Under the pieces are notes generated by a model. The model was not told where the DNA came from, ran no database searches, and saw only the letters and a list, made by a program, of their open reading frames with translations. The position numbers were made by a program, and so were the translations under genes. Positions 37,117-55,646 of a stretch of DNA of 64,000 bases are shown here, in pieces; within the stretch, counting starts at the first letter, position 1, and the number at the start of each line of letters is the position of its first letter. Origin of the DNA: a virus (taxonomy: Duplodnaviria > Caudoviricetes). The DNA lies in IMG/VR virus record IMGVR_UViG_3300021256_000056, positions 1-64,000 of that record. One strand, 5' to 3'.

Positions 37117-37974
37117 TTAGAATCTAATATTGCAACAGTCATCAGGGTTACAGTTGTAATGCTCCTGCCAATACTTCCAGTGTTCCTCCACGTCTTCACA
37201 TACAGATTTTTCCTTGAATCCCGTGATTTTATCCAGGTATTCCTTCTTTAATTCAAGCGGGAGGTGTTTGTAACCAGAACTCTTGAGCGTGTACTTGGAA
37301 AGGTCCACAGGCGCATTGAGATTGGTAAGCCATTTCTCAATCCACGTATTAACCCGCAGAAACTCCACCAGAATTTTATCGCACTTGACGTTGTTAATGA
37401 TGTCGAGGTCAACAAAATCTGGAATAAACGGCGATAGGCGTAACGTCACGTCGAAACCGTTGGCCTGTAGTTTTTCAATGCCCTTGATTTTCTCCTTATA
37501 GGAAGGTGCACCTGGTTCAACACGCTTGCCAAGTTCTTCGTCGGTGTTGGTGACTGATACCTGAATATGAGCCAGCTTCTTATCGAGCACAGCCATATAA
37601 TCGTCTCTCGAAATGAGGTCGGCGTTCTTGGTCACAATAAGATAATGAACACCACGCTCATTAAGGGCCTTTATCGTTTCCATGGTAACGTGATAAGTAT
37701 CTTCGCAGTTCTGGAAACAGTCGGTCATGCCACCAAGCCTGACTACCTCCCCTGGTTGTAACTTCTTGTTGATAACTCGCTTGATTTTCTCTATGTTTGC
37801 CACTGATGGTTCGGCGGGATTCCATAACTTCCTGAACGCCAGAAGTGACCTGGCATAGCAATAACCACAATTATTGGCGCACCCGCAGCCGTAGGTATCG
37901 AGCCTGGTTGGATAGTGACATCTGTCACCCTCGTTGCCTTCTACTTTCTTAAAAAAACTATTAAACTCCTTCAT
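37117..37974 (-). CDS. radical SAM protein (spore photoproduct lyase-like)
   Basis: GCANNCGYCYAR, GGMTDCFQ, IVTK, RLSP. Confidence 0.85.
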   Translation of the reverse strand: MKEFNSFFKKVEGNEGDRCHYPTRLDTYGCGCANNCGYCYARSLLAFRKLWNPAEPSVANIEKIKRVINKKLQPGEVVRLGGMTDCFQNCEDTYHVTMETIKALNERGVHYLIVTKNADLISRDDYMAVLDKKLAHIQVSVTNTDEELGKRVEPGAPSYKEKIKGIEKLQANGFDVTLRLSPFIPDFVDLDIINNVKCDKILVEFLRVNTWIEKWLTNLNAPVDLSKYTLKSSGYKHLPLELKKEYLDKITGFKEKSVCEDVEEHWKYWQEHYNCNPDDCCNIRF

Positions 37975-38047
37975 CTTATTAGTGTTTACTAAAAGATAAA
38001 GGAGTTCGACAAAAAATCAATGCAATAATGAGATAAAATTACCTATG

Positions 38048-38136
38048 CGGAGGGTGGGAGATTCGAACTCCCGCGACCTTTAACAGCCCTACTGGTTTAG
38101 CAAACCAGCCCCTTCAGCCAGCTTGGGTAACCCTCC
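38048..38136 (-). tRNA. tRNA-Ser(GCT)
   Basis: cloverleaf, CTGGT-TTGCTAA-ACCAG, long variable arm. Confidence 0.92.
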
Positions 38137-38145
38137 GTTATTTTG

Positions 38146-38220
38146 AGCCCATGACTGGATTCGAACCAGTGAAAAATCGGTTTTGCAGACCGACCGTTTA
38201 GACCACTCGCGCACATGGGC
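38146..38220 (-). tRNA. tRNA-Cys(GCA)
   Basis: TCGGT-CTGCAAA-ACCGA. Confidence 0.92.
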
Positions 38221-38235
38221 ATAGTTTTTAATTTG

Positions 38236-38308
38236 AGCCGAGGACAGGAGTCGAACCTGCAACCCCCTGATTACAAGTCAGGTGCTCTACCATTAAAGCT
38301 ACCTCGGC
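38236..38308 (-). tRNA. tRNA-Thr(TGT)
   Basis: CCTGA-CTTGTAA-TCAGG. Confidence 0.92.
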
Positions 38309-38640
38309 AAAAACCTCGCGTATTTTTCGCCCCGCGAGGTGAGCTCCTTGCACGCCTATTTATATACCGTCCGCCAGAATTACGGTGGTGCCCCATTTTG
38401 GCGCCTTCGGGGCAATTGGGGGTTGGCCCTTCTGAAGAAAACGCTTTGCGAATATCCTCAATGGCGGCCAATACCATAAAAATAAGTCACAACATTGCAC
38501 CATCACGCCTTCCACGGTTGAATGTCGCACAGGTGGTTTCTATAATCTAATTTCAGCCGAAACTAGGCTTGCACCTGTGAAGTTTATCCGCGCTAACGTC
38601 TCCAGTTTATTAAGACTGGTGTGCTACTTGTGACTTTAAC

Positions 38641-38763
38641 AGAAAATCATTTAAAAGACTGGATTCGAACCAGCGTTTCCCCTGCTTTCCAGAGGCGTTC
38701 TGACCCCTAAACTACATGTCCGAAGTTTTGGTGGACACAGGTAAAACTTGCTGTTGGTTTTCT
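38641..38763 (-). ncRNA. ACAGCAA-helix RNA enclosing a permuted tRNA (acceptor 3' strand plus CCA first)
   Basis: AGAAAACC-AACAGCAA...TGTGTCCACCA-linker-GGACATG-D arm-stem-T arm...GATTTTCT. Confidence 0.7.
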
Positions 38764-38832
38764 TTATTTAAGAATATATCAAAATTGTCAAAAAATCAAT
38801 GAAAATGATAGATTTCTAATAAAGTGTCAAAA

Positions 38833-39321
38833 TTAAACTTTTAACCCGAATTTTTTGATTAAATAGCTCTTTTTTTCATCTTTGGGCATGGATACCATGT
38901 AAAGAAAATCATCACCGTGCTTATTGATATAAGCTTCTAATGTACAAATTGTTTTACAAGGAACGCCAGCAGCAACCGTATTGCTTGGTATGTCTCTGTT
39001 CACTACACTTCCCGCCCCAATAATGCTGTTATCTCCAATGGTTACTCCAGGTAAAATAACGCTCCTGCAGCCAATAAAACAATTTTTGCCAATTTTAATT
39101 GGAGCATATATTACCGTTTCTTTGTTTCCATTGGGTAAATTCCTGATAACCCTCGTAGCAGCATCGTGTGTCACAAAGGCGACATCAAAACTCACAGTTG
39201 TATTATCCCCAATCTCAATGAGATACGGCTCAGAGCCGAAATTGCATGTGCCCCCAAAACTAACGTTTTTACCAAGTCTTAAACCGTTGTTAACCGCTTC
39301 TTTTAAATTTGTTACATCCAT
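38833..39321 (-). CDS. hexapeptide-repeat sugar acetyltransferase
   Basis: FGSEPYLIEIGDN, IGKNCFIG, IIGAGSVV. Confidence 0.88.
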   Translation of the reverse strand: MDVTNLKEAVNNGLRLGKNVSFGGTCNFGSEPYLIEIGDNTTVSFDVAFVTHDAATRVIRNLPNGNKETVIYAPIKIGKNCFIGCRSVILPGVTIGDNSIIGAGSVVNRDIPSNTVAAGVPCKTICTLEAYINKHGDDFLYMVSMPKDEKKSYLIKKFGLKV

Positions 39322-39333
39322 AAATTATTGATT

Positions 39334-39409
39334 TGGAGCCCCATATTGGACTTGAACCAATAACCTCCTGATTACGAAACAGGTACTCTACCAATTGAGC
39401 TAATGGGGC
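39334..39409 (-). tRNA. tRNA-Thr(CGT)
   Basis: loop TTCGTAA; CCA encoded. Confidence 0.9.
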
Positions 39410-39414
39410 GAAAA

Positions 39415-40140
39415 CTATTCATCTTTGTCTTTTAGCGTTTTCTTTTTTCGATGAAACCTTTTACTATTCTTATTTAATGAGCCAAAGTTGGGGGTTAGGC
39501 TATGGCAATTAGGGCACAGTAGTTGCAAGTTTTCAATACGGTTATTTGTACAATCACCATCAATATGGTGAACTTCGAGAGGAACATTCCCCGTAAATTC
39601 GTTAACTTCGCCCCAGTGACATTTTTCGCATTTATTGTCGTGAAGGCTCATTAAGTATTCCTTAATAAACACTGGCACCTGTGAAGCTCCCCTCAAAAAA
39701 TTTTCTCCCCCTAGCCACCTTTCTAATTTGCTTATTTTTGGTGGGGTTTCATTTGTATATTCTTCGTATTCTCTTTCTGGAAACTTTGAACGTATGGAAT
39801 CTGAAATTTTTTTCTTGGTTTCAAAACTGCGTGGGCCACGTTTTACGTTATTATATTTCGCGGCACATGACGAGGAACAAAACTTATTGAATCTTTGTTC
39901 AAAACTCAATTTTCTCCCGCATTCTTCACAATACCTGGGATTTTTATCATATGTTTCCCTTGTTTGTTTGTTTTGATAATATTGTCCAGTAATATTCGCT
40001 TTCTGTTTTATCCTATTAATAAAACGCCAAGAAGCGCCATTGGGCCTCCTTCCAAAATAATTTATAACCTCTTTCTCGGAACAACATGCCTCGAACGCAG
40101 ATATTATTTCTTCAATAGAAATCTCTTCGACCTTTTTCAT
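39415..40140 (-). CDS. free-standing HNH homing endonuclease
   Basis: LEVHHIDGDCTNNRIENLQLLCPNCHS. Confidence 0.92.
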   Translation of the reverse strand: MKKVEEISIEEIISAFEACCSEKEVINYFGRRPNGASWRFINRIKQKANITGQYYQNKQTRETYDKNPRYCEECGRKLSFEQRFNKFCSSSCAAKYNNVKRGPRSFETKKKISDSIRSKFPEREYEEYTNETPPKISKLERWLGGENFLRGASQVPVFIKEYLMSLHDNKCEKCHWGEVNEFTGNVPLEVHHIDGDCTNNRIENLQLLCPNCHSLTPNFGSLNKNSKRFHRKKKTLKDKDE

Positions 40141-40203
40141 ACTCTTTTTTATAATAAATAGTATAAAAGGGTGAAAAAGTCAAGTCGAACCATTGTTTTT
40201 GTG

Positions 40204-40277
40204 GGTGAGTAGTCGGATTCGAACCGACGTAAACCACATCCACAGTGTGGCCCCTAAACCTCTCGGGCATACTCACC
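40204..40277 (-). tRNA. tRNA-His(GTG), G-1 genomically encoded
   Basis: CCACA-CTGTGGA-TGTGG; G-1:C73. Confidence 0.92.
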
Positions 40278-40418
40278 ATGTTTGCTGCATTAGTTATACG
40301 TATGCTGCCTGCAGCGAGCCCACGCATGGGTCCCTTATTCCGTTTCGCGGCTAACCCATGAACCGTCGTAGCATGTACCTGACTTCTGCTACGCTGTTCC
40401 TGTGCGTCAGGGTGGTTG

Positions 40419-40491
40419 AGCAGCGTAGCAGAATCGAACTGCCATCTCTAGCATGGCAAGCTAGTATAATCAACCATTATACGAACGCTGC
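40419..40491 (-). tRNA. tRNA-Gly(GCC)
   Basis: CTAGC-TTGCCAT-GCTAG. Confidence 0.9.
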
Positions 40492-40613
40492 AAATACTTC
40501 TTTTAGAACAACCCCAGAGAAGTTTAGAACTGTGCCGACCTACGATTCGGACGCTCATTTGACTTTCGTCAGGGAAGGCGCATCTTCGTTCCCGCCGCGG
40601 ACGGGCCAATAGA

Positions 40614-40889
40614 TTATTTAATTAATCGTTTCCGTTCTTCTTTGATAATCTCAAGTCCTGTTTCAATCTGTCTTAACCATTTCCCTTGTTCAGTAATTTT
40701 CGTCTCGGGAAGAGCATTCTTAAACTCGTTAAGGCTCTTTTCGGCATAATCACAGGACTCTTCGTCAAGTAAACTGTCCGCGCTAATTAAAGAAACATAA
40801 TAGAGGTTTAATAACCCAGTCTCGAACATTGTGTTGAGAAGAGTTATTATATCATTCCTAATTTCTTTTTCTGTTCTTTTCTTTTCCAT
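40614..40889 (-). CDS. hypothetical protein
   Basis: AT-rich ORF between tRNAs, start MEKKRTE. Confidence 0.6.
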   Translation of the reverse strand: MEKKRTEKEIRNDIITLLNTMFETGLLNLYYVSLISADSLLDEESCDYAEKSLNEFKNALPETKITEQGKWLRQIETGLEIIKEERKRLIK

Positions 40890-40891
40890 TG

Positions 40892-40963
40892 AGCGGGATA
40901 GCAGAATTGGACTGCCATCTTCAGCTTGGAAGGCTGACATAATAACCGTTATACGAATCCCGC
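40892..40963 (-). tRNA. tRNA-Gly(TCC)
   Basis: TCAGC-CTTCCAA-GCTGA. Confidence 0.88.
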
Positions 40964-40969
40964 AATTAG

Positions 40970-41042
40970 TTGTCGTTACCTGATTCGAACAGATATTTCC
41001 AGGTTCAGAGCCTGGCGTCCTCAACCGTTGGACGAAACGACA
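40970..41042 (-). tRNA. tRNA-Gln(CTG)
   Basis: CCAGG-CTCTGAA-CCTGG. Confidence 0.9.
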
Positions 41043-41422
41043 ATTTTAGTAATCCAAATCACTTCTGGGTGTTCTCCAAAAACCGTGTGTGTGACATTAC
41101 ATAGCCATACGGTTAAAATGGGGGCAGCGTCCTCAGAGACTACGGCATCCATTATCTCATTAAATAAATAGCCACTTAATGAATATGTTGCTCCATCATC
41201 ATCATGTTTAAGTCTCGTTAACTTCAATAAACACTGCTTCGGCTCATCAATATTTAGAATAAATCCCGATTCCATTTCAACTTCGAAAGAATCTTTTCCC
41301 TTCGAGAGCAGCTCACACATTTCATCGGCCCCTAAAACCATCTCATTATCTTCAAGACTATGCTCTGGAACGTCGGCATACCAACGCCCGTCTTGCTTGA
41401 AAAATTTGAGTTTCGTTTTCAT
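41021..41422 (-). CDS. conserved hypothetical protein
   Basis: WYAD.P...EMVLGAD...WLCNVTHTVFGEHP; ends inside tRNA-Gln. Confidence 0.7.
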   Translation of the reverse strand: MKTKLKFFKQDGRWYADVPEHSLEDNEMVLGADEMCELLSKGKDSFEVEMESGFILNIDEPKQCLLKLTRLKHDDDGATYSLSGYLFNEIMDAVVSEDAAPILTVWLCNVTHTVFGEHPEVIWITKIVVSSNG

Positions 41423-41426
41423 ATCG

Positions 41427-41502
41427 TCGAGTAGACAGGGCTCGAACCTGCATGAATCTCCACATCCCAAATGTGGCGAGGAACCAATTCCTCCACTACT
41501 CG
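41427..41502 (-). tRNA. tRNA-Pro(TGG)
   Basis: CCACA-TTTGGGA-TGTGG. Confidence 0.9.
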
Positions 41503-42101
41503 ATATGTGGACTCGATTTTTGGTTTTGTATAGCGGTACCAACTACTACGTATTCCACATGTTTTATCGTGCCAAGTCCTCACACGAACCGATATTTTAA
41601 GTGCTCGGTATGCAGTATCGTCCTTCCTGCTTCCATTACACTTTGCGCAACCGTTGGGCGTCGAACCCAAAGCCTTCTGTAGTACTTTCGCCATTAAGCT
41701 GTTAGCAAAAGCAGGTGGTATTGCACTCACCGCGACGGGAGCTACCCGTAATCCATTGTTCGGTTGCGTTTGCCAAGGAAGATGGATTCGAACCATCATT
41801 CACGCATTGTGTGATTGCGCCACCGCTTATTCCTTATTATTTACACACAAAGTAATATTCAGCGGAATCCCCTTGTGGATAGGGGCGGTTTGCCATTGTC
41901 CTACTCCTTGTTTAAATGCATTACCTGCCCTGACCTCTATATGCTTTTACATAATGTTTTGAATTCTTCAATTTTGAAGTTCTGCATTTTGATACAATGC
42001 CTGGGCGCTTCTTGTGAAGCCTTTGGGTTGCCGATGTTGCTCTGTTTGCCATTTTCTTAATTTTTCACAAATATACATTTATTTTTTATAAAAATCAATA
42101 G

Positions 42102-42216
42102 TCGGGGAAGAAGGAATCGAACCTCCGCTAACGGCACCCAAAGCAATTTGACGCTGCTGTTAGTTTTCAATACTGAAAACATTTAAAACGTCGTGCTACC
42201 ACTACACTATTCCCCA
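42102..42216 (-). tRNA. tRNA-Pro(TGG) interrupted by a 44-nt ACAGCAG-helix insert (42145-42188) at position 29/30
   Basis: removing the insert restores ACG|GC-TTTGGGT-GCCGT. Confidence 0.85.
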
Positions 42217-42223
42217 AAATTTG

Positions 42224-42340
42224 TGAGGAGGATGGGACTCGGACCCATGACCCACGGGTTAAAAGCCAAGGTGAGGTTGCTGTTAGTTTTCAGTACAGAA
42301 AACGTTTTATACGTTGCTCTACCAACTGAGCTACCTCCTC
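42224..42340 (-). tRNA. tRNA-Lys(TTT) interrupted by a 44-nt ACAGCAA-helix insert (42268-42311) at position 29/30
   Basis: removing the insert restores ACG|GG-CTTTTAA-CCCGT. Confidence 0.87.
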
Positions 42341-42347
42341 AAAATTG

Positions 42348-42393
42348 CGACGATAGGAGGAGTCGAACCTCCAATCATGCCAAATCTATCGTC
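42348..42393 (-). ncRNA. tRNA minihelix (acceptor stem and T arm only)
   Basis: GACGATA-14nt-GGAGG TTCGACT CCTCC-TATCGTC-G. Confidence 0.65.
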
Positions 42394-42428
42394 AACCGTC
42401 AACTTAAGACAACGTGTTACCACGTTTG

Positions 42429-42511
42429 TGGCCCCTGTGGGACTCGAACCCACACCCCATTGCTGGGAGTAGATTTTGAGTCTACCGCGTATACCATTCC
42501 GCCAAGGGGCC
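42429..42511 (-). tRNA. tRNA-Leu(CAA)
   Basis: GTAGA-CTCAAAA-TCTAC. Confidence 0.93.
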
Positions 42512-42615
42512 ATAAATAAAGAAGCCAGGCAACACTGCGACATTTTCAGAGTTTTTGTGACCACTTTGCTGGTACCCTACTTAAGTGGTTGCCCTACCAA
42601 CCTCGGGCTTCTTAG

Positions 42616-42689
42616 TACCCCCTGTAGGATTCGAACCTACGACCCGCAGATTAGAAATCTGCTGCTCTGTCCAACTGAGCTAAGAGGGC
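42616..42689 (-). tRNA. tRNA-Arg(TCT)
   Basis: GCAGA-TTTCTAA-TCTGC. Confidence 0.93.
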
Positions 42690-42694
42690 TTTTG

Positions 42695-42769
42695 TGCTCC
42701 TAGAAGGACTCAAACCTTCAACCTTATCCTTAGGACGGATTTGCGCTGATTCAATTGCGCCATAGGAGC
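42695..42769 (-). tRNA. tRNA-Arg(CCT)
   Basis: loop GTCCTAA. Confidence 0.85.
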
Positions 42770-42777
42770 ATTTGTTG

Positions 42778-42880
42778 CGGCAGTAAACCGAATCGAACGG
42801 CTATCAACCACCGACGGTGGTCATTCTTCGTGCGGGTTTCATTTAATTGCAGCTGCACAATACCCATTAAACTATACTGC
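42778..42880 (-). ncRNA. aberrant tRNA-like RNA
   Basis: GGCAGTA/TACTGCC acceptor and T arm; central region non-canonical. Confidence 0.55.
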
Positions 42881-42886
42881 CATTTG

Positions 42887-43010
42887 TTGCGGGTGAGGGA
42901 GTCGAACCCCCGTCTTTTCGTTATGGGTGAAATTACGATGTAAGTTGCCGCAAGATTTCCATGCGAAAACCTTTTTTGCTTTTACATGCTAACCATTGCA
43001 CTAACCCGCA
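42887..43010 (-). tRNA. tRNA-Met(CAT)-like with a variant helix insert (GCGGCAA) before the anticodon arm
   Basis: TGCGGGT/ACCCGCA; GGTTTTC-GCAT-GGAAATC-TTGCGGCAA; loop CCCATAA. Confidence 0.65.
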
Positions 43011-43018
43011 ATATTGTG

Positions 43019-43421
43019 TGGAGATGGGCGGACTCGAACCGCCGTTTTTCAAGCTTGCAAACTGCTTTCTACGCGCTTAGTTTTCTTTATGATTCGTTGG
43101 GCACTGGTGGAAAACACACCTGAGTACTCAATATATCATTCTGGAAACGTAGCCAAACCAGACGAATGAAACTGGCCTGCCGCTCTCGATTTGATGATGC
43201 CCTCATATTGTGAATTCAACCAAGACCAAACATTCACGAGGACAATCGTCCCGACACATCCTAGGTGCCGATGGATTAGGCTTATTTGCTTAGCAAATTA
43301 AGCGGCGATTGCATAGGTGTTGTTGCCAACTAATTTTTTTGATATTTGTTTAAAGGCTAAAAATCAAAACGCCTGCGTGCTTACAATCCTCATAGATTGA
43401 AATCAAAACCAAAACATCCCC
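43019..43421 (-). ncRNA. ssrA: tmRNA, tag (A)GNNTYAIAA
   Basis: 5' GGGGATG, 3' GGTTCGAGTCCGCCCATCTCCA with G3:U70; tag ORF GGC AAC AAC ACC TAT GCA ATC GCC GCT TAA. Confidence 0.95.
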
Positions 43422-43430
43422 ATGTTTTTG

Positions 43431-43503
43431 TACCCGATACAGGACTCAAACCCATACTCTGGGAGCCGTATTCCCAAGTTCTATTCAGTTAAACTAATCG
43501 GGC
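43431..43503 (-). tRNA. tRNA-Arg(ACG)
   Basis: TGGGA-ATACGGC-TCCCA. Confidence 0.85.
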
Positions 43504-43645
43504 TTTTTATTTTATTTTCATTTTCTCTATATTCCTTTTTTCTATATCTTCTTACCGAAGAATCATTCCTGCTTCCAAAATTTTCTGTCATTGCATGGCA
43601 ATTTGGACATAAAACTTCTATGTTTTCTTCTGTTACATTTGTTTA
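43494..43645 (-). pseudogene. HNH endonuclease C-terminal remnant
   Basis: translates TNVTEENIEVLCPNCHAMTENFGSRN; N-terminus missing. Confidence 0.8.
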
Positions 43646-43676
43646 TTAATAAATAATTAGATAAGAAAGATTTGAG

Positions 43677-43750
43677 AGCCCTCAGTCGGAGTCGAACCAA
43701 CACTTCATCCATACCACAGATGCGTACTCAGCCTTTAATACGATGAGGGC
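43677..43750 (-). tRNA. tRNA-Thr(GGT)
   Basis: CATCT-GTGGTAT-GGATG. Confidence 0.85.
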
Positions 43751-43855
43751 AAATCGCCAGGTGAAGCTAACCTGGCCCCCGTGAACTACCAGCCAGCCCT
43801 GCACCACGGGTGTTGATATGAGTACTGGTTGCATATCAACTTACAAGCTTACTTG

Positions 43856-43930
43856 TGCTCCCGATGGGACTCGAACCCATAACCCACTGTTTAAGAGACA
43901 GTTGCGCTCAACCAATTGCGCCACGAGAGC
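43856..43930 (-). tRNA. tRNA-Lys(CTT)
   Basis: ACTGT-CTCTTAA-ACAGT. Confidence 0.93.
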
Positions 43931-43940
43931 AGTTATTATG

Positions 43941-44012
43941 TAGCGGATAGGAGAGTCGAACTCCTCTCTCAAGATTGAGAATCTTACGTCCTAACCGATA
44001 GACTAATCCGCC
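43941..44012 (-). tRNA. tRNA-Glu(CTC)
   Basis: loop TTCTCAA; near-duplicate of Glu(TTC) at 47243. Confidence 0.9.
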
Positions 44013-44214
44013 ATTATCATATTACACAATGTTACATGTTTTATAAAAAATAAAGCATTGCGGATTTCCGTAGTCACCGCAATCGTTCTCCTCCTGCTAC
44101 CGTATACGACAGGCTAAGGCGAACTATAAGAACTTACCTATATTCGAACCTTTTCCTCTTAATCCACTTTATAAGAGTATGCTATAGGGTTCCCCACCTT
44201 GGTACTTTGATTTG

Positions 44215-44371
44215 TCGCGCATCTTGGAATCGAACCAAGTTCCTCTGGGGTTAGCAGCCCAGCGAGTTTTGTGTCTCCGCAGACTTGCAATCTACAATTA
44301 AGCGTCGTTGCAACTCAACTTAATCTGAATGTAGTATCCGCTTCTGTGCGTCTCCAACACTCTCATACGCG
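44215..44371 (-). ncRNA. initiator-like tRNA body with ~80-nt D-loop insertion and 8-nt anticodon loop
   Basis: CGCGTAT/ATGCGCG; CTGGG-CTGCTAAC-CCCAG; T arm intact. Confidence 0.6.
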
Positions 44372-44505
44372 GACAAGGCAGCGTGTATGCATCACCTTCT
44401 GACCTTGTAGAACGGACTTATATACATACCGTAACATTTTCGTAGTATGTAATTTCATCTGTTTTGTGTCTCCGACGAGGCTCGAACTCGTGACCCCCAC
44501 ATTAA

Positions 44506-45341
44506 CCTACCCAATATAGTTGCCTATACCATCTTACGATGTTTGAGTTTGGACCATTTCTTATCCATGCCACTTCGTGGTTTAGGTGGTGGTGTATGGC
44601 CTCTACACATTTATGCAAAAAAGCAATTTAGCCCGACGTTTTCCCAGGGGGATGTTCGTCGAATTAGCCACCATTCACGACAAGGGTTTCCCCTCGTGTG
44701 CTCCTTTCTTAGATTCACGTAAACATGAAATGCATAACCCGCTTTTAGTTTCCCTATGAAGCGGTTTTCCACATTTTTTGCACACGTGTTTGTACGTGTG
44801 GGTGTGTGTGGTTGTTTTAACCCCCTTCATATTTTTCTTTCCAGCGTAACTATCTGTTTGTGAATGGCAATTAGGACACAAAATCACTAGATTGTCGAGT
44901 TCATTATTAAAATGGTCTCCATCTTTATGATGAACTTGCAACGTTATGCTTTTACCATGCCACTCAGAAATTCCGCATTCTGGATTTTCGCACTTATATT
45001 CTTTCAGCCCCAATGAAATTAGTTTTTTCATTAATTCCGAAGATTTTATAAGTTTGTCTTTAACAAAAAAATCCTCTTTGTCTAGACCGTTGTGATTTTT
45101 ATTTCCGATGTTCGATTTTTGTCCAGTGAAATGTGAGGTATCTAGGTCGTATTCTTTCACGTATTTGTAAAACGTTCTATAATTACCACCAACAGGTTTC
45201 CATCCCACAGCACGACAAAAATCAGCAACACTAAAAACACGTTTACATATCTCTATTGCCTCTTCTTTACCAATTACATTTTTTGTCATAATAACACTTT
45301 TATAATAAATAGTGTTTAATTGGTAAAAGTAAGAAGATTTG
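44506..45341 (-). mobile_element. group I intron (IC3-like) with HNH ORF
   Basis: P/Q/R/S-like AATTCGACGAA, GTCGGGCTAA, GTGTAGAGGCC, AAGAAATGGTCC; terminal G after GGTAG. Confidence 0.85.
44675..45289 (-). CDS. intron-encoded HNH homing endonuclease
   Basis: LQVHHKDGDHFNNELDNLVILCPNCHS. Confidence 0.92.
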   Translation of the reverse strand: MTKNVIGKEEAIEICKRVFSVADFCRAVGWKPVGGNYRTFYKYVKEYDLDTSHFTGQKSNIGNKNHNGLDKEDFFVKDKLIKSSELMKKLISLGLKEYKCENPECGISEWHGKSITLQVHHKDGDHFNNELDNLVILCPNCHSQTDSYAGKKNMKGVKTTTHTHTYKHVCKKCGKPLHRETKSGLCISCLRESKKGAHEGKPLS

Positions 45342-45399
45342 AAGTGTGGTGCTCTACCAACTGAGCTACGGAGACTTTCCTTAAATTACCATAAAATTG

Positions 45400-45475
45400 T
45401 TGCGCAGGACGGGCTCGAACCGACGACTTCCAGGATATGAATCTGGTGCTCTACAACCAACTGAGCTACTGCGCA
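45400..45475 (-). tRNA. tRNA-Met(CAT)
   Basis: loop TTCATAT. Confidence 0.85.
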
Positions 45476-45483
45476 ATATTTTG

Positions 45484-45556
45484 CGGAGACGGGCGGAGTC
45501 GAACCACCGACGCGGGGCTCTTCAGGCCCCCGCTCTACCAACTGAGCTACGTCTCC
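45484..45556 (-). tRNA. tRNA-Phe(GAA)
   Basis: GGGGC-CTGAAGA-GCCCC. Confidence 0.93.
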
Positions 45557-45662
45557 AAAAAAAAGGTAAAATCTTCGAAGATTGCTGCAGCGGAAGTCCC
45601 CGAGTCGAACGGTGGTTACCTGGTGCCCCTTGCATACAATACTGCAACAAATTTTACCTTTG

Positions 45663-45738
45663 TGGGTGTCCTGAGACTCGAACTCAGAAACCTCTTGTGT
45701 ATCAGACAAGTGCTCTCAACCAATTGAGCTAGGCACCC
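45663..45738 (-). tRNA. tRNA-Ile(GAT)
   Basis: CTTGT-CTGATAC-ACAAG. Confidence 0.92.
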
Positions 45739-45748
45739 AGAAATTTTG

Positions 45749-46466
45749 TGGGACAGGAGGGACTCGAACCCTCACCCTCCTTAGAGGACTGGTTCCTCGT
45801 ACCACTATGGCTTTCGCCACCAAAACAACTTCGAACTTGCGGGTTGGATTTTCAAGGCTTGTACACCCCCAGGTTGTCTTGTTTGTGGTCTGGACTGTAT
45901 CTTAACCATATTGAAATCTAGCTAGTAAACATCCTTATACTTATAGTCTCGTAGTTTAATGTGGGTCACGCGACCACCCCTAGCTCATATAAGCATGTTA
46001 TTTCAACTTAGGCTCCTCCTGTATCTCGTCTCTACACACTGTCTATTATTCTATATCTGCGGTCCCTTGTTCTCAGGCTATATTCATTACTGAAGTATAG
46101 TCTTGCAGTATAGATTTTAACATTGGCTCGGCATTAGCATATTATTCCTATTGGGGTTTTACAAGTTTCGCTTATAGTTTTATTCCGATATTCACGGTGT
46201 CCCACAAAACCAATATTTGAATAACTTAGCTTTCACCGAATTAGGAAGGTTCTACATAACGGGTTTCCCCGCGTCCACAGGCTACTCTCCCGTTTGGGAT
46301 TGTTTACCTTATCTATCACGCTTCGCAGCGTCCTGTGGTATGCACTCAAGTTAAACGGGCGCCTATCCGCATACAGAGTGTCTCAGTCTGTAATCTCCAA
46401 GTATAGGTTATCAGTATAAGCCCGTTGTTCATAAGACCAGCGCGTCTACCATTCCGCCACTGTCCC
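45749..46466 (-). tRNA. tRNA-Leu(TAG) split by a group I intron
   Basis: exons CTGGT-CTT | AGGA-ACCAG. Confidence 0.9.
45798..46432 (-). mobile_element. group I intron (IC3-like), no recognisable ORF
   Basis: AATTCGGTGAA, AATGCCGAGCC, GTGTAGAGACG, AAGATACAGTCC; ends GGTACG. Confidence 0.9.
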
Positions 46467-46605
46467 AAAATTAGATAAGGGTGTATAATGCTGCCCTTGC
46501 TATATTGTGTGGCAACCCTTAAATGAGATTTTCCAAATACCTTTGTCTGCCATATTCTCAGGTGCTCATTACTGTAGCATTGATTATGTATATGAAGGTT
46601 ACCAC

Positions 46606-46691
46606 TGGTGCGGCAGGTGAGACTCGAACTCACACGGGATTGCTCCCACCACCCCCTCAAAGTGGCGCGTCTACCATTCCGCCACTGCCGC
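46606..46691 (-). tRNA. tRNA-Leu(GAG)
   Basis: CCACT-TTGAGGG-GGTGG; CCA encoded. Confidence 0.92.
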
Positions 46692-46857
46692 ATAAATATA
46701 TTGTTTTTAAATGGCCCTGGAATCTGTATTGACCACTAAGGGGGTAATCCTCCATCTACAGAATCTGTACCATCAGGTTTATCCCATTGGTTCCCTAAGA
46801 CCCATTCTTTTTCTCGGTGCGTGGTGACACCTCAAACCGTGAATATATACCTAGTTG

Positions 46858-46930
46858 TGGAGGATACGAGACTCGGACTCGTGACCCCCTGCTTGCAAAG
46901 CAGGTGCTCTACCGACTGAGCTAATCCCCC
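46858..46930 (-). tRNA. tRNA-Ala(TGC)
   Basis: CCTGC-TTTGCAA-GCAGG; G3:U70. Confidence 0.93.
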
Positions 46931-47242
46931 TTCATGGTCCTCTTTTAATCGCTATTCATTTAGGGAGCAGGAAGGACCAGTCCTATGACGTGTTAGCCTC
47001 AAACGCCATTCTAAGAGGTTCCTCAAAAATGCACTGCAGTATATGGTGTCCACCATTGCCCCTAATCGCCACCGCTTTCGGAGGGGTTTTGATACCATAG
47101 CATCATCGGAGAAATAAACGGGTTACTTAGTTATCGCTTGGCGCATAGACGCCTCAAACTTGCCTGTTGGCCACCCTTCGTGAGGTACAGAATAACTTAC
47201 TGTTTCTATGCCTTCAGTTACTGCCTCACCCTCACCCGTTCG

Positions 47243-47314
47243 TAGCGGATAGGAGAGTCGGACTCCTCTCTCAAGAATGAAAATCTTGCGTCCTAACCGA
47301 TAGACTAATCCGCC
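47243..47314 (-). tRNA. tRNA-Glu(TTC)
   Basis: CAAGA-TTTTCAT-TCTTG. Confidence 0.9.
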
Positions 47315-47321
47315 ATAAATT

Positions 47322-47452
47322 AAGAGCATAACGGTGTTTCGAACCACCGTTAATTGTTACCAGCGTGCGTTTCCTCTAATACACCAACCGAGTTTATTGT
47401 TTGCTCTGGGACCGTGGCCTTTAGTCCATTATCGAGCCCTCTGGTATCTCTT
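47322..47452 (-). ncRNA. unknown ~135-nt tRNA-trailer RNA, copy 1
   Basis: AAGAGA-TACCAG...GCACG-CTGGTA-ACAA-T-loop hairpin-CTCTT. Confidence 0.65.
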
Positions 47453-47453
47453 G

Positions 47454-47519
47454 TGCGTAAACATGGAGTCGAACCACGTTATTTCTAGGATTGCATTGCC
47501 TCTATATGCTATTTTACGC
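47454..47519 (-). ncRNA. tRNA-like RNA lacking a paired anticodon arm
   Basis: GCGTAAA/TTTACGC acceptor; D and T arms present. Confidence 0.6.
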
Positions 47520-47523
47520 AAAT

Positions 47524-47664
47524 AAGAGCATTATGAAGTCTCGAGCCTTCATAAATTGTTACTTAGCGTGCTCGTCCATCTTTACACTATTCCCGTTAAG
47601 AGTCCTTCCTTTTCACGTTGCCTAGAACTTTTCCGAAAAGAGAACTCACCTCTAAGTATCTCTT
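47524..47664 (-). ncRNA. unknown ~135-nt tRNA-trailer RNA, copy 2
   Basis: AAGAGA-TACTTAG...GCACG-CTAAGTA-ACAA-hairpin-CTCTT. Confidence 0.65.
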
Positions 47665-47665
47665 G

Positions 47666-47748
47666 TGGGCAGGGAGGGATTCGAACCCCCGAAGCCGTGA
47701 GGCAGCAGATTTACAGTCTGCCCGTTTTGACCGCTTACCTACCTACCC
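47666..47748 (-). tRNA. tRNA-Tyr(GTA)
   Basis: GCAGA-CTGTAAA-TCTGC, long variable arm. Confidence 0.92.
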
Positions 47749-47880
47749 ATAAAAAAACTTAAGCCACTCGCGTCCCACAGGTCTGTTCTCGCTTTTATTA
47801 AGAGGTGCACACGAGATTACTCTCCCTCCTTTAAAGTAAGTCGCCCTCCTAAGCCTTGTCCGCTTAAGTTAAAAAACAAC

Positions 47881-47947
47881 GGGAAACATTTTTACGTATG
47901 TTCAGAAAGAAAGTCGGAATTTTAGTAAATTTTGCTGTTAGTTTCCC
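47881..47947 (-). ncRNA. ACAGCAA-helix RNA with Glu(TTC)-like loop
   Basis: GGGAAAC-TAACAGCAA...TTCCGA-CTTTCTT-TCTGAA...GTTTCCC. Confidence 0.7.
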
Positions 47948-47952
47948 TTTAG

Positions 47953-48074
47953 AGCTGATGCAAGGAATCGAACCTCGGTCTGCGGCTTGGAATGCATTTC
48001 TTGATTTTTGCTGTCCGTAACCTTGTCAGAATACCTTATTTGAAAACGCTGTGCTACCACTACACCACATCAGC
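47953..48074 (-). tRNA. tRNA-Gly(TCC) interrupted by a 51-nt ACAGCAA insert (47996-48046) at position 29/30
   Basis: removing the insert restores GCG|GC-ATTCCAA-GCCGC. Confidence 0.83.
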
Positions 48075-48254
48075 TTATATTAAAATCTCCTGTTTGCCTC
48101 GGGTGGACGCGTCGGGCTGAATCCGCCCATCACCCTTAACACCTCGCCATTATGCTATGGCTTTATTCCATACTGCATAAAGGTTTTCCTACCACGTGGG
48201 TCACATAATGTCAACCTGATTGTTGGTTATGTAGCTCCCTCAGAGATAATAAAT

Positions 48255-48332
48255 TGGCGGTGCGTACGGGATTCGAACCCGTGAACTCCACCGTGACAGG
48301 GTGGCATGATAGACCAGCTTCACCAACGCACC
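48255..48332 (-). tRNA. tRNA-Asp(GTC)
   Basis: CCACC-CTGTCAC-GGTGG; CCA encoded. Confidence 0.94.
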
Positions 48333-49020: not shown

Positions 49021-49156
49021 AAGAGCCATAGCATATTCGAATTCCGCTATGTTGTTACCGAATGTGCGAACGTCTCTTGCATTTCACACCGCTGCTAATC
49101 GTACTCCATTGCTATACGCGTAATAGCAACTTAAGGAGCCCTTTCCAGTATCTCTT
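49021..49156 (-). ncRNA. unknown ~135-nt tRNA-trailer RNA, copy 3
   Basis: AAGAGA-TACTGG...GCACAT-TCGGTA-ACAA-TTCGAAT hairpin-CTCTT. Confidence 0.6.
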
Positions 49157-49564: not shown

Positions 49565-49716
49565 GTGTAACCAGAAATCAGAAATGTTTTACTCTACCTA
49601 CTGAGCTACATGGGAAGAATACCGTAACTCCCACGGAGGGACTCGAACCCTCGTCCTTAGTTTTACAGACTTACAAACAATTAATGAACTTGCTGTAAGA
49701 TTTCTTCACGTTACAC
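49565..49716 (-). ncRNA. ACAGCAA-helix RNA enclosing a circularly permuted tRNA-Tyr(GTA)-like module
   Basis: order: helix, ACAGCAA, CTGTAAA loop, T arm, acceptor hairpin, D arm, helix. Confidence 0.8.
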
Positions 49717-49806: not shown

Positions 49807-50123
49807 GAAATTACAGGCACGTAAACGAAATGCCCTCAGACTTCCCAATGGTTTATAGATTAAAGACCTAAAACCATTATGCGGCTCCTTCACACCTACG
49901 AAAAACAGTCTTTGTCAACTACCACGTGTTATAGTATTGTAGGCAAGTTATTCTAACGTCAAACTGCCATGACGATGGTTGCTATTACGCCACACCAAAA
50001 ATAGCGGGTCTGTTTACTAAACAAGAAATTGACCGCAGGTTGGATTTACACCAACTTACTCCCAGTAAAATCCAGGGCTTCAAATTACAAAAGCCTCGCA
50101 CGGTTGATTCCTTGTAGAAATAC

Positions 50124-50235
50124 GGGAAGCGTTTTACGTCCAACGGACGGGGGCGGACTTGAACCGCCGAACCTCTCAAGTTCTGATTTTCAGTCGGAAT
50201 TGTTAAACCTTTGTTGAGATTGCTGTGTGCTTCCC
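50124..50235 (-). ncRNA. ACAGCAA-helix RNA with Phe(GAA) loop, T arm and closed acceptor-like hairpin
   Basis: GGGAAGC-ACACAGCAA...CTGAAAA...GGCGG TTCAAGT CCGCC...CGTCC-GTT-GGACG...GCTTCCC. Confidence 0.78.
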
Positions 50236-50240
50236 TGTTG

Positions 50241-51028: not shown

Positions 51029-51216
51029 AATATTCTTTTTATTATAAATAGTATGAAAAGAGAAAAATCGAACCTTTTTGGAAATTTTTATTTAGTTCGA
51101 ATATATAATGAAAAATGAATTTTCCTCTAAGGGGAGTAGTCTAACTCCCCAGTGTGTTTTATGACCTTTTCAGCAAACCAATGTAAAAACCCAATAACTA
51201 TGGTTGTAAAAATTTC

Positions 51217-51281
51217 GGAAATCTGTTTTTCAGAATATTAGATTAAAAGTCTAGTCCTTGATAAATTGCTGTAAGATTTCC
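51217..51281 (-). ncRNA. ACAGCAA-helix RNA with Lys(TTT) anticodon stem-loop
   Basis: GGAAATCT-TACAGCAA...TAGA-CTTTTAA-TCTA...AGATTTCC. Confidence 0.8.
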
Positions 51282-51283
51282 TC

Positions 51284-53323: not shown

Positions 53324-53395
53324 GTGCTTTTAATTTTCTTATAAATAGTTTGTTGAAACAAAAAAGCCTCAGATTTATCTGAGGCTTATAGGAAC

Positions 53396-53462
53396 GGAAA
53401 ACTTTTTGTTAAAATTCGAAGTTTGGAATCGGATTTGGTCTAATATTTGCTGTCGGTTTTCC
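53396..53462 (-). ncRNA. ACAGCAA-helix RNA with Trp(CCA)-like loop
   Basis: GGAAAAC-CGACAGCAA...TTCCAAA...GTTTTCC. Confidence 0.68.
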
Positions 53463-53476
53463 TATTTTTGTCTGTT

Positions 53477-54226: not shown

Positions 54227-54234
54227 AGAAAGAC

Positions 54235-54295
54235 AGGAAACATTAAAATCAACATTATCAGTGTTTATTTGACGAAAGGTTGCTGTGTGTTTCCT
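54235..54295 (-). ncRNA. ACAGCAA-helix RNA with Ile(GAT) anticodon stem-loop
   Basis: AGGAAACA-CACAGCAA...AACA-CTGATAA-TGTT...TGTTTCCT. Confidence 0.78.
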
Positions 54296-54311
54296 TATCT
54301 TAATGTTTCGT

Positions 54312-55468: not shown

Positions 55469-55567
55469 ATGATGGGTCGCCCCGCCATAAATTTTCTTTT
55501 TTTTAAAGAGCTTTTACAAAAATACGACCTTTTAATTAAAAAAGCAAGGTCTTTTAATAAAAAAAAC

Positions 55568-55625
55568 GGAAAACTTTTTTGTGACGCAGTATTATCAGTA
55601 CTTCCAAAATTGCTGTAAGTTTTCC
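55568..55625 (-). ncRNA. ACAGCAA-helix RNA with Ile(GAT) anticodon stem-loop
   Basis: GGAAAACT-TACAGCAA...AGTA-CTGATAA-TACT...AGTTTTCC. Confidence 0.8.
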
Positions 55626-55646
55626 TGCCTTGCCAGGTCGAGTTTG

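What the first reader, a model, noticed from the sequence alone, without database searches (positions are those of the whole stretch)
42102..42340. Two adjacent tRNAs carry equal-length 44-nt inserts at position 29/30
Seen: tRNA-Pro(TGG) and tRNA-Lys(TTT) each have a 44-nt insert after the third base of the anticodon stem. The layout is 8 nt + GTTTTC-N6-GAAAAC + TAACAGCAR + 9 nt. Exact removal restores perfect 5-bp stems. tRNA-Gly(TCC) at 47953-48074 has a 51-nt version at the same site. Known: bacterial tRNA introns are self-splicing, and these are too short for that. Short protein-spliced introns at non-canonical sites are archaeal/eukaryotic and use BHB motifs. Inference: either a new phage mini-intron class or unspliced decoy tRNAs.
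Basis: partly seen in the sequence, partly recalled or inferred. Interest (0 to 1): 0.88.

Follow-up and report, generated by a model that had tools for sequence, protein, structure and literature searches.

The report
tRNA-shaped phage RNAs carrying protein handle
Two neighbouring tRNA genes of a huge phage (and a third nearby) really are interrupted by a precise 44-51-base insert, but the insert is a conserved RNA "handle" that in related phages travels with a Ro60-like ring protein, so these are more likely unspliced tRNA look-alikes of an undescribed Y-RNA-like particle than tRNAs with a new kind of intron.

Summary
Rfam's tRNA model finds Lys(UUU) at 42224-42340, Pro(UGG) at 42102-42216 and Gly(UCC) at 47953-48074, all on the minus strand. 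Each has a 44, 44 or 51-nt insert between nt 29 and 30. Deleting the insert in silico gives canonical tRNAs.

The insert is not private to these genes. It is the closed (hairpin) form of a module: A-rich tract, 7-bp helix, 2 nt, ACAGCAA. The window holds 7-8 more copies in an open form, where the helix brackets anticodon-arm or permuted-tRNA cargo. I found about 50 more copies in the tRNA arrays of 15 other huge-phage contigs.

All three near-complete module-bearing genomes encode one DUF2828/DUF7788 protein. Its model matches only Ro60. A module lies directly beside that gene in three of four genomes.

In relatives the insertion site varies: 28/29, 29/30, 31/32, or the whole anticodon loop replaced. 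Most handle-bearing tRNAs duplicate an uninterrupted gene with the same anticodon. No EndA or RtcB was found.

Best reading (about 0.5): retained handle, tRNA mimic. Splicing is not excluded (about 0.25). The held half of this genome lacks the protein gene, and no RNA data could be obtained. This scan has noted the same handle on other phage DNA before.

The parts
42224..42340 (-). tRNA-Lys(UUU)-shaped gene, 117 nt: body 42340-42312, insert 42311-42268, body 42267-42224
   Evidence: Rfam tRNA 47.7 bits. Split at 29/30. ARAGORN calls Lys(ttt) after deletion.
42268..42311 (-). 44-nt handle insert in Lys: A-rich linker 42311-42304, hairpin 42303-42286, TA, ACAGCAA 42283-42277, linker 42276-42268
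   Evidence: Read from the sequence, motif positions and the family comparison.
42102..42216 (-). tRNA-Pro(UGG)-shaped gene, 115 nt: body 42216-42189, insert 42188-42145, body 42144-42102
   Evidence: Rfam tRNA 41.8 bits. Split at 29/30. ARAGORN calls Pro(tgg) after deletion.
42145..42188 (-). 44-nt handle insert in Pro: linker 42188-42181, 7-bp hairpin with GTAT loop 42180-42163, TA, ACAGCAG 42160-42154, linker 42153-42145
47953..48074 (-). tRNA-Gly(UCC)-shaped gene, 122 nt, with a 51-nt handle insert at 48046-47996 (ACAGCAA at 48014-48008)
   Evidence: Rfam tRNA 45.5 bits. Split at 29/30; an alternative split at 40/41 scored slightly higher. ARAGORN calls Gly(tcc) after deletion.
55567..55626 (-). 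Open-form handle RNA. Cargo is a 4-bp stem with loop CTGATAA (Ile GAU-like).
   Evidence: GGAAAAC/GTTTTCC helix, flanks A and G
54234..54296 (-). Open-form handle RNA. Cargo is a stem-loop with CTGATAA.
53395..53463 (-). Open-form handle RNA, followed by an intrinsic-terminator-like hairpin
51216..51282 (-). Open-form handle RNA displaying a Lys(UUU) anticodon arm (TAGA-CTTTTAA-TCTA). It begins 3 nt after tRNA-Ser.
   Evidence: Best own match to Rfam RF01414, 23.3 bits.
50123..50236 (-). Open-form handle RNA (GGGAAGC/GCTTCCC) with a Phe(GAA)-like arm plus a T-arm-like hairpin
49572..49706 (-). Open-form handle RNA whose cargo is a circularly permuted tRNA-Tyr(GUA)-like fold with a closed acceptor stem
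   Evidence: Rfam YrlA 31.4 bits, E 2e-5, below the gathering score.
47880..47948 (-). Open-form handle RNA 6 nt after the interrupted Gly gene
38640..38764 (-). Weaker open-form copy (6-bp helix) with tRNA-like cargo
41426..41502 (-). Uninterrupted tRNA-Pro(UGG), making the handle-bearing Pro redundant
40891..40963 (-). Uninterrupted tRNA-Gly(UCC), making the handle-bearing Gly redundant
44467..45375 (-). Second tRNA-Lys(UUU), split after U34 by a group I intron that carries an HNH ORF
   Evidence: Rfam Intron_gpI 34.4 bits, E 1.6e-5. HNH. Exon ends read.

Best explanation
The 44-nt inserts (51 nt in Gly) are the closed, hairpin version of a conserved RNA handle: A-rich tract, 7-bp helix, 2 nt, single-stranded ACAGCAA. 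The handle most likely stays in the mature RNA as a side arm on the anticodon stem. That gives tRNA-shaped RNAs which display a Lys(UUU), Pro(UGG) or Gly(UCC) anticodon loop and dock a phage Ro60-like ring protein (DUF2828/DUF7788). They would be an inside-out relative of bacterial YrlA Y RNAs. Shown here: the handle family exists, its helix covaries, it occurs in two topologies, relatives link it genetically to a Ro60-fold protein, and the handle-bearing tRNAs are redundant. Inferred: that the protein binds the handle, that the insert is not removed, and what the particle does. The most plausible role is to bring the ring protein, or enzymes it tethers, to factors that read anticodon arms, such as host anticodon nucleases or tRNA repair and modification enzymes.
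For: 1. The same module closes 7-8 other small RNAs in this window. About 50 more lie in tRNA arrays of 15 huge-phage contigs found with one pattern.
2. 52 of 76 ACAGCAA sites have a 7-bp partner, against 0-11 for displaced controls. There are 22 distinct helix sequences with changes on both sides. The flanks, which were not used for selection, are A in 48/48 and G in 48/48.
3. The hairpin form is the open form joined through a loop that starts with G, as read from the hairpin list. This points to one structural unit in two layouts.
4. Open forms carry cargo that cannot be a decoding tRNA: bare anticodon arms and permuted tRNAs with closed acceptors.
5. The Lys loop CTTTTAA is kept across phages while its stem covaries.
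6. All three near-complete module-bearing genomes, plus one that is 74% complete, have exactly one DUF2828/DUF7788 gene.
7. A module lies directly beside that gene, on the same strand, in 3 of those 4 genomes. More distant homologues of the gene sit in handle-rich tRNA arrays.
8. The AlphaFold model (pLDDT 84) has Ro60/TROVE structures as its top 13 PDB matches. A sequence profile hits only Ro60.
9. In relatives the insertion site varies. One tRNA-Lys-like body has the handle in place of the whole anticodon loop. The Tyr(GUA) versions lack the long variable arm of bacterial tRNA-Tyr.
10. By my count, 8 of 10 assessable handle-tRNAs duplicate an uninterrupted or self-splicing gene with the same anticodon in the same array.
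11. No EndA or RtcB was found in 12 phage records.
Against: 1. The held 195 kb of this genome (about 53% complete) has no DUF2828/DUF7788 gene. An 82%-complete relative also lacks one in its held part.
2. The three window genes look like fully legitimate tRNAs once the insert is removed. They have perfect 5-bp stems, U33 and a purine at 37. Their discriminator and first pair fit the cognate synthetases (U73 with G1-C72 and C2-G71 for Gly; A73 with G72 for Pro; A73 for Lys), read from the cloverleaves against identity rules I know for E. coli.
3. The 34 nt spanning the Lys junction are identical to uninterrupted tRNA-Lys genes in other phage arrays. This is what a precise intron would look like.
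4. Rnl2-family RNA ligases, which seal nicks in duplex RNA, occur in several relatives.
5. Binding of the protein to the handle was not tested, and no RNA data were available.
Confidence: 0.5

Rival explanations
1. True protein-dependent mini-introns. The handle is the recognition element of an unidentified endonuclease. The insert is cut out, the nick at 29/30 is held in the duplex anticodon stem, and it is sealed by an Rnl2-type or host ligase. The product is an ordinary decoding tRNA.
For: Removal restores perfect stems and canonical tRNAs with features that fit their synthetases. The split stem covaries between orthologues: ACG/CGT here, CTT/AAG in L020, CG/CG plus GAA/TTC in L019. The Lys exons are identical across the junction to uninterrupted tRNA-Lys genes elsewhere. 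PF09414 ligases occur in relatives. Another short insert class in these phages does look like a needed intron.
Against: No EndA, RtcB or bulge-helix-bulge motif was found. The insertion site and the distances from the handle to both junctions vary (linkers of 6-14 and 9-15 nt), so neither a ruler from the tRNA body nor one from the handle fits. The same module closes about 50 RNAs that have no exons. One relative has no recoverable anticodon loop. Most copies are redundant with intact genes.
Confidence: 0.25
2. Dual use. The insert is excised, and both products work: a mature tRNA, and a free 44-nt minimal handle RNA that loads the Ro60-like protein.
For: The handles directly beside the Ro60-like gene in G001 and G002 have very small cargo (19-28 nt), so a handle-only RNA of about 45 nt appears viable. 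The evidence listed for the intron rival applies here too.
Against: The lack of any splicing machinery counts against this as it does against the intron rival. It also needs two functions where one suffices.
Confidence: 0.1
3. Disrupted tRNA duplicates. A repeated module was copied into spare tRNA genes, which are now pseudogenes without function.
For: All three are redundant with other genes of the same anticodon.
Against: The bodies stay canonical, and the split stem is kept by compensatory changes in divergent phages. The insert always sits in the 5' half of the anticodon arm. The Pro version is shared between divergent phages, with an insertion site that differs by one base (28/29 against 29/30).
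Confidence: 0.08
4. A DNA-level repeat such as a REP- or MITE-like palindrome or a promoter or terminator motif, with no RNA role.
For: The hairpin is nearly a perfect palindrome in DNA.
Against: 9 of 10 strict copies in the genome are on the tRNA strand. Pair 7 shows T-G wobble in 4 of 48 copies, which pairs only in RNA of this strand. The long-range helix covaries around variable cargo. In 596 Gb of prokaryotic genomes the pattern occurs only as single hits with no tRNA array nearby, and only about 3 times my rough chance estimate of 8.
Confidence: 0.02

Closest known systems
YrlA-type bacterial and phage Y RNAs with Ro60/Rsr (Rfam RF02553; Chen et al. 2014, PMC4201824; Thermus phage phiLo Ro60 with Yrl1/Yrl2, PMC12135203)
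   Same: Both are small RNAs that combine a tRNA-like part with a separate protein-binding stem. Both are encoded near a ring-shaped TROVE+vWA protein gene. The permuted copy at 49572-49706 gives a weak YrlA match (31.4 bits). The partner candidate has the Ro60 fold.
   Different: The protein is DUF2828/DUF7788 and is not detected by the TROVE model. The handle is a helix plus ACAGCAA, not the bulged helix or CGAA motif of Y RNAs. There are many copies per genome inside tRNA arrays. The anticodon arm is kept and displayed. In the two genes examined here the layout is inside-out: the ends are normal tRNA ends and the handle is an internal hairpin.
Class I RNAs of dictyostelid social amoebae (Rfam RF01414; Kjellin et al. 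2021, PMC7919456)
   Same: Both are about 60 nt, with a 6-7-bp stem joining the ends and an unpaired conserved motif just after the 5' strand. The paper gives T, C, C, A, A as conserved at motif positions 3, 6, 9, 10 and 11. That fits ..T..C..CAA, as in NNTTACAGCAA. Both start A-A/G-G and end C-Y-G-U, and both have variable sequence between. The CM gives full-length weak hits in this and three related phage records, and none at E<=0.01 in the tool's 14 control genomes.
   Different: Scores are 23-25 bits against a gathering score of 41.5. The hosts are eukaryotes, and the known protein partner there is an RRM protein. The hairpin form inside tRNAs has no counterpart.
Archaeal and eukaryal protein-spliced tRNA introns and permuted tRNA genes (bulge-helix-bulge, EndA, RtcB; review PMC4090602)
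   Same: Both show short inserts at non-canonical sites in the anticodon arm. Both show interrupted and circularly permuted tRNA genes sharing one motif.
   Different: There is no bulge-helix-bulge motif, no EndA and no RtcB in 12 phage records. The hosts are presumably bacterial, since the arrays carry tmRNA. The motif also closes RNAs without tRNA bodies.
Bacterial and phage group I introns in tRNA genes (PMC3984707)
   Same: Both interrupt a tRNA anticodon arm. A genuine example lies 2 kb away, at 44467-45375.
   Different: The insert is 44-51 nt against more than 200 nt. There is no catalytic core and no Rfam match. The site is in the stem, not the loop.

Membership tests
tRNA (Rfam RF00005) | Cloverleaf scoring above the gathering score (29 bits) | tested here: met
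   47.7, 41.8 and 45.5 bits, full length, with the insert treated as an insertion. ARAGORN calls them only after deletion.
tRNA (functional decoder) | Continuous anticodon stem in the mature RNA | not testable with these tools
   This needs RNA data.
Group I tRNA intron | Catalytic core (P3-P9) of more than 200 nt that matches RF00028 | tested here: not met
   The inserts are 44-51 nt, and no Intron_gpI hit appears at E up to 10 in 42090-42430.
BHB-type protein-spliced tRNA intron | Bulge-helix-bulge at the two junctions | tested here: not met
   The 8-nt and 9-nt ends of the inserts are not complementary in Lys and have only 3-4 possible pairs in Pro and Gly. No 4-bp helix lies between 3-nt bulges.
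BHB-type protein-spliced tRNA intron | Splicing endonuclease (EndA, PF01974) and RtcB ligase available | tested here: not met
   None was found in this record or in 11 related phage records, three of them near complete. The host's enzymes are unknown.
Ro60/Y RNA particle | A Ro60-fold (TROVE+vWA) protein encoded by the same genome | tested here: inconclusive
   It is absent from the held 195 kb, which is about 53% complete. It is present once in each of 3 near-complete genomes and one 74%-complete module-bearing relative. The fold is Ro60.
Ro60/Y RNA particle | RNA gene next to the protein gene | tested here: met
   This holds in relatives only. A handle lies directly 3' of the gene in G007 and directly 5' in G001 and G002. 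One lies 34 nt downstream in L055.
Ro60/Y RNA particle | Match to the YrlA covariance model (gathering score 69 bits) | tested here: not met
   The best score is 31.4 bits, at the permuted copy 49561-49677. Scores are 15.8-21.5 bits around the two genes, and the match rests on the tRNA-like part.
Ro60/Y RNA particle | Physical binding of the RNA to the protein | not testable with these tools
   The complex predictor takes no RNA. This needs EMSA or a pull-down.
Dictyostelid Class I RNA (RF01414) | Score at or above 41.5 bits | tested here: not met
   The best score is 23.3 bits here and 22.7-25 bits in relatives.
Dictyostelid Class I RNA (RF01414) | Terminal 6-bp stem, adjacent unpaired motif ending in ..ACAGCAA, conserved A-A/G-G start and C-Y-G-U end | tested here: met
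   This holds for the open-form copies. The two tRNA inserts carry the permuted hairpin form.

The most novel reading that the evidence does not exclude
The handle is a real intron of a new, protein-dependent splicing system in phages of bacteria. The Ro60-like particle, or an unknown nuclease, recognises helix+ACAGCAA and removes it. The nick at 29/30, held in the duplex anticodon stem, is then sealed by an Rnl2-type nick ligase. That would give those ligases a natural substrate, and would explain why interrupted and permuted tRNA genes share one motif, as in archaea.
Probability: 0.2. Interest if true: 0.95.

Novelty: new variant of a known kind. Interest (0 to 1): 0.75.

Why it matters
If the handle is retained, huge phages make a whole set of tRNA look-alikes. 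These range from bare anticodon arms and permuted tRNAs to complete tRNA bodies, all tagged for one Ro60-like protein. That would be a large, undescribed branch of the Ro60/Y-RNA world, sitting where phages and hosts fight over tRNAs through anticodon nucleases and tRNA repair. It would give a testable function to the widespread DUF2828 family. It might also give a partner to the dictyostelid Class I RNAs, whose signature it shares. If the insert is instead spliced, it would be the first protein-dependent tRNA intron system in a bacterial virus. Either result is reachable with one Northern blot or tRNA-seq run and one gel-shift experiment.

Tried and rejected
- **Exact insert core in viral contigs.** GTTTTC-N6-GAAAACTAACAGCA gave 0 hits. 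The open-form pattern was the productive one.
- **Radical-SAM neighbour as an anchor.** It gave one relative, truncated before its tRNA array.
- **Prokaryotic genomes.** 25 pattern hits were all single copies with no tRNA array nearby (24 had no tRNA at all). This is only about 3 times my rough chance estimate of 8, so I treat them as chance.
- **Known RNA families.** Nothing in Rfam matched the inserts at E up to 10 apart from tRNA itself.
- **Splicing and repair enzymes.** RtcB, EndA and TROVE were absent from all 12 records. No RNA ligase was found in the held genome.
- **Small ORFs inside the array.** None gave an informative Pfam match.
- **Thermodynamic folds.** The full genes gave z-scores of -1.0 to -2.3. 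The handle hairpin formed in Pro but not in the Lys or Gly minimum-energy folds, and the anticodon stem did not form in any. Uninformative.
- **Spliced Lys junction in metagenome contigs.** The scan found three uninterrupted tRNA-Lys genes of other phage arrays, not transcripts of this gene.
- **Readings considered and dropped:**
  - hammerhead or other small ribozyme: the cores do not fit and the cargo varies;
  - C/D or H/ACA guide RNA: no boxes or pocket;
  - K-turn, or an Hfq or CsrA site: the required bases are not conserved;
  - trans pairing of ACAGCAA: its complement is not enriched;
  - promoter: the hairpin form lacks the upstream context.
- **Lys-Pro cross pairing.** The 11-bp pairing between the Lys and Pro inserts is explained by the two near-identical palindromic hairpins.

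Full report
**What is there**

The window is the first 64 kb of a 195-kb virus record judged about 53% complete. All genes run on the minus strand. A tRNA array spans roughly 38-57 kb, with 35 ARAGORN tRNAs and a tmRNA.

Rfam's tRNA model finds extra, over-long tRNAs that ARAGORN misses. They are Lys(UUU) at 42224-42340, Pro(UGG) at 42102-42216 and Gly(UCC) at 47953-48074. A search over all possible splits places each insert after the third base of the 5' strand of the anticodon stem, position 29/30. The inserts are 44, 44 and 51 nt long. For Gly an alternative split at 40/41 scored slightly higher. I kept 29/30 because it matches Lys and Pro, and because ARAGORN calls a canonical Gly(tcc) after that deletion.

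After in-silico removal ARAGORN calls three canonical tRNAs. The one detail that failed is the 'Rnl2-like ligase', which is not in the held genome.

**The insert belongs to a family**

The core of the insert is a hairpin, then TA, then ACAGCAA. On the same strand of the same array it recurs in an opened form: 5'-A | RGRAANC | NN | ACAGCAA | cargo | GNTTYCY | G-3'. Seven clear copies and one weaker copy lie between 38.6 and 55.6 kb.

A single pattern built from this form found 15 stretches, on 13 huge-phage contigs of 10-393 kb. Every stretch lies inside a tRNA array, mostly with several copies. In 596 Gb of prokaryotic genomes the same pattern gave only 25 isolated hits with no tRNA array nearby. 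That is about three times my rough chance estimate of 8.

In the pooled set, 52 of 76 ACAGCAA sites have a perfect 7-bp partner for the 7-mer ending 2 nt upstream. Displaced control 7-mers gave 0-11. The 48 open copies use 22 different helix sequences, with changes on both sides at every position. T-G wobble at pair 7 fits RNA of this strand only. The flanking bases were not used for selection, yet they are A in 48/48 and G in 48/48.

The hairpin form inside tRNAs has a stem of 6-7 pairs whose loop starts with G, with one copy weaker by a mismatch (read). It is preceded by the same A-rich tract and followed by NN-ACAGCAA. It is therefore the open form joined at its ends, that is, a circular permutation of it.

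**What the open forms carry**

With the helix constrained, the cargo folds mostly into a stem with a 7-nt anticodon-like loop. Loops seen include Lys CTTTTAA, Ile CTGATAA, Phe, Glu, Gly, Cys and Tyr. Some cargo is a permuted tRNA: anticodon arm, T arm, acceptor closed by a loop, then D arm.

The Lys loop CTTTTAA is invariant in eight copies from different phages, while its stem changes (ACAAT/ATTGT, CAAA/TTTG, TAGA/TCTA and others). None of these RNAs can be a decoding tRNA. None has flanking exons from which the module could be spliced.

**Homologues of the interrupted tRNAs**

Related arrays hold further handle-bearing tRNA bodies:
- Pro(UGG) in L020, at 28/29 or 29/30.
- Glu(UUC) in L011, at 29/30, and Asn(GUU) in L011, somewhere between 29/30 and 31/32.
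- A trio in L019 displaying Gly UCC, CAU and Pro UGG, all at 28/29, on one shared stem CG|GAA/TTCCG and one shared D arm.
- Two Tyr(GUA) bodies, in L016 and L008, at 31/32. They have a short variable loop, and one has U73. This is unlike bacterial tRNA-Tyr.
- A tRNA-Lys-like body in L020 (3448-3563) in which the handle replaces the whole anticodon loop.

The site is thus always in the 5' half of the anticodon arm, but it is not fixed. The linkers between handle and junctions vary from 6 to 15 nt. The split stem is kept by compensatory changes (ACG/CGT here, CTT/AAG in L020).

Within this window the Pro and Gly versions share nearly the same D and T arms, which differ from those of their uninterrupted isoacceptors.

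**Redundancy**

Uninterrupted Pro(UGG) and Gly(UCC) genes lie 0.6-7 kb away. A second Lys(UUU) gene carries a group I intron with an HNH ORF. In L020, L019 and L014 the handle-bearing Pro, Glu, Asn and CAU genes also have uninterrupted twins in the same locus. By my count, 8 of 10 assessable cases are redundant.

A second, unrelated class of short inserts gives a contrast. These are 79-110 nt, lie in the anticodon loop and begin (A)TACAG or TACGG. In the complete genome G001 they interrupt the only Tyr(GUA) and Gly(UCC) genes. Those look like needed introns. The handle class does not.

**A candidate protein partner**

Earlier notes of this scan on other phage DNA said that the handle travels with a Ro60-shaped protein. 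I tested this here.

PF11443 (DUF2828), and a profile of 26 homologues, each find exactly one gene of 530-575 aa in four genomes. These are all three near-complete module-bearing genomes and a fourth that is 74% complete. Neither search finds the gene in the more fragmentary records or in the held part of this genome.

The protein is DUF2828 plus DUF7788, with a DxSxS metal site. A profile search of PDB sequences returns only Ro60, at E 0.016-0.018. An AlphaFold model (pLDDT 84, pTM 0.84) has Ro60/TROVE structures as its top 13 PDB matches over the full length, at E 3e-7 to 9e-5.

A handle lies directly 3' of the gene in G007 and directly 5' of it in G001 and G002, on the same strand each time. 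G001 has only 14 strict handles in 393 kb, so a same-strand handle within 100 nt of a given gene is expected at a rate of about 0.002 (my arithmetic). In G007 all five strict handles lie just downstream of the gene. Homologues at about 50% identity from unrelated assemblies again sit at the head of handle-rich tRNA arrays.

I found no paper on DUF2828 and RNA. Published phage Ro60 partners use a different motif.

**Weighing intron against retained handle**

*For splicing:*
- The three window genes are flawless tRNAs once the insert is removed.
- Their discriminator bases and first pairs fit their synthetases. This is my reading of the cloverleaves against identity rules known for E. coli.
- The 34 nt across the Lys junction are identical to uninterrupted tRNA-Lys genes of other arrays.
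- Rnl2-family ligases, which seal nicks in duplex RNA, exist in relatives.

*Against splicing:*
- There is no bulge-helix-bulge motif, no EndA and no RtcB.
- The site and linker lengths vary.
- One relative has no recoverable anticodon loop.
- Most copies are redundant with intact genes.
- Above all, the same module serves as the closing stem of about 50 RNAs that have nothing to splice.

A bulge at 29/30 should also be incompatible with the ribosomal P site, from what is known of its contacts with the 29-41 and 30-40 pairs. An unspliced RNA would therefore not decode.

I put the retained-handle reading at about 0.5 and splicing at 0.25. Excision with a functional free handle gets 0.1, and decay or a DNA-level repeat together about 0.1.

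**Relation to known systems**

The working analogy is the YrlA type of Y RNA with Ro60. Membership fails on the RNA model (31 bits against 69) and on the TROVE model. The layout of the two genes is inside-out compared with YrlA.

The open-form signature coincides closely with the dictyostelid Class I RNAs: A-A/G-G start, 6-7-bp stem, unpaired ..ACAGCAA, C-Y-G-U end, about 60 nt. Rfam's model for that family scores only 23-25 bits here.

I rate the whole as a new variant of a known kind of particle. This scan has seen it before on other phage DNA. I did not find it in the searchable literature.

**Limits**

No expression data could be obtained. Protein-RNA binding is inferred from gene neighbourhood and fold only. 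The partner gene is not in the held half of this genome. The biological role (decoy, tether or repair platform) is conjecture.

Noticed in passing
window 55647-55827 (-); also L017:1154-1328, L014:10094-10269, L014:2740-2890, L014:10379-10556, L010:1830-1985: A second class of short inserts (79-110 nt) lies in the anticodon loop. They begin (A)TACAG or TACGG, followed by a small hairpin and AAACGAAC, and often hold a T-arm-like or tRNA-like fold. Here one splits an fMet-like tRNA after CTCA. In the complete genome G001, the only Tyr(GUA) and Gly(UCC) genes carry this insert, so these may be genuine introns of an undescribed short type.
   Followed up: partly
window 44467-45375 (-): tRNA-Lys(UUU) is split after U34 by an intron of about 840 nt. 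It gives a sub-threshold group I match (34.4 bits, E 1.6e-5) and contains an HNH ORF (44675-45289).
   Followed up: partly
window 55983-56090 (-): A 108-nt tRNA-model hit (44.7 bits) has about 35 extra bases in the anticodon region and a TCCGAAT T loop. It has no ACAGCAA, and no clean anticodon could be assigned.
   Followed up: partly
window 42347-42394 (-): Directly upstream of the Lys gene lies a tRNA-like minihelix: a 7-bp acceptor-like stem, a 14-nt linker and a canonical T arm, with no D arm or anticodon arm.
   Followed up: no
window 54154-54226 (-): A tRNA with anticodon CTA (called 'Pyl' by ARAGORN) is present. It may be an amber suppressor, hinting at TAG recoding in part of the phage. 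G001 has one too.
   Followed up: no
window 51216-51282 (-) and L011:1000-1070, L013, L014, L015, L016, L020 copies: A bare Lys(UUU) anticodon arm on the handle is conserved across at least seven phage contigs. The loop CTTTTAA is invariant and the stems covary, so the loop identity itself is under selection.
   Followed up: partly
window 42102-42216 and 47953-48074 (-); L019:935-1330: Handle-bearing tRNAs of different anticodons share one 'chassis' of near-identical D and T arms. In L019 the anticodon stem is identical too. This looks like one scaffold with swapped loops and acceptor stems.
   Followed up: partly
L058:4001-9387 versus window 37117-57000: There is shared gene order. In a distant phage the sequence is Ro60-like gene, DUF7873 gene, tRNA array, radical-SAM gene. 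In the window the tRNA array ends at a radical-SAM gene (37117-37974), but the position upstream of the array holds a SprT-like ORF (57064-58608) instead.
   Followed up: no
window 38000-57000: Three HNH endonuclease ORFs (39415-40140, 44675-45289, 50273-51028) and a tmRNA (43018-43421) are embedded in the tRNA array. An Hsp70 gene lies at 26277-28160.
   Followed up: no
literature: DUF2828 is reported in eukaryotes (plants, a tardigrade assembly). The handle signature matches the dictyostelid Class I RNAs. Whether dictyostelids have a DUF2828 protein that binds Class I RNAs was not checked.
   Followed up: no
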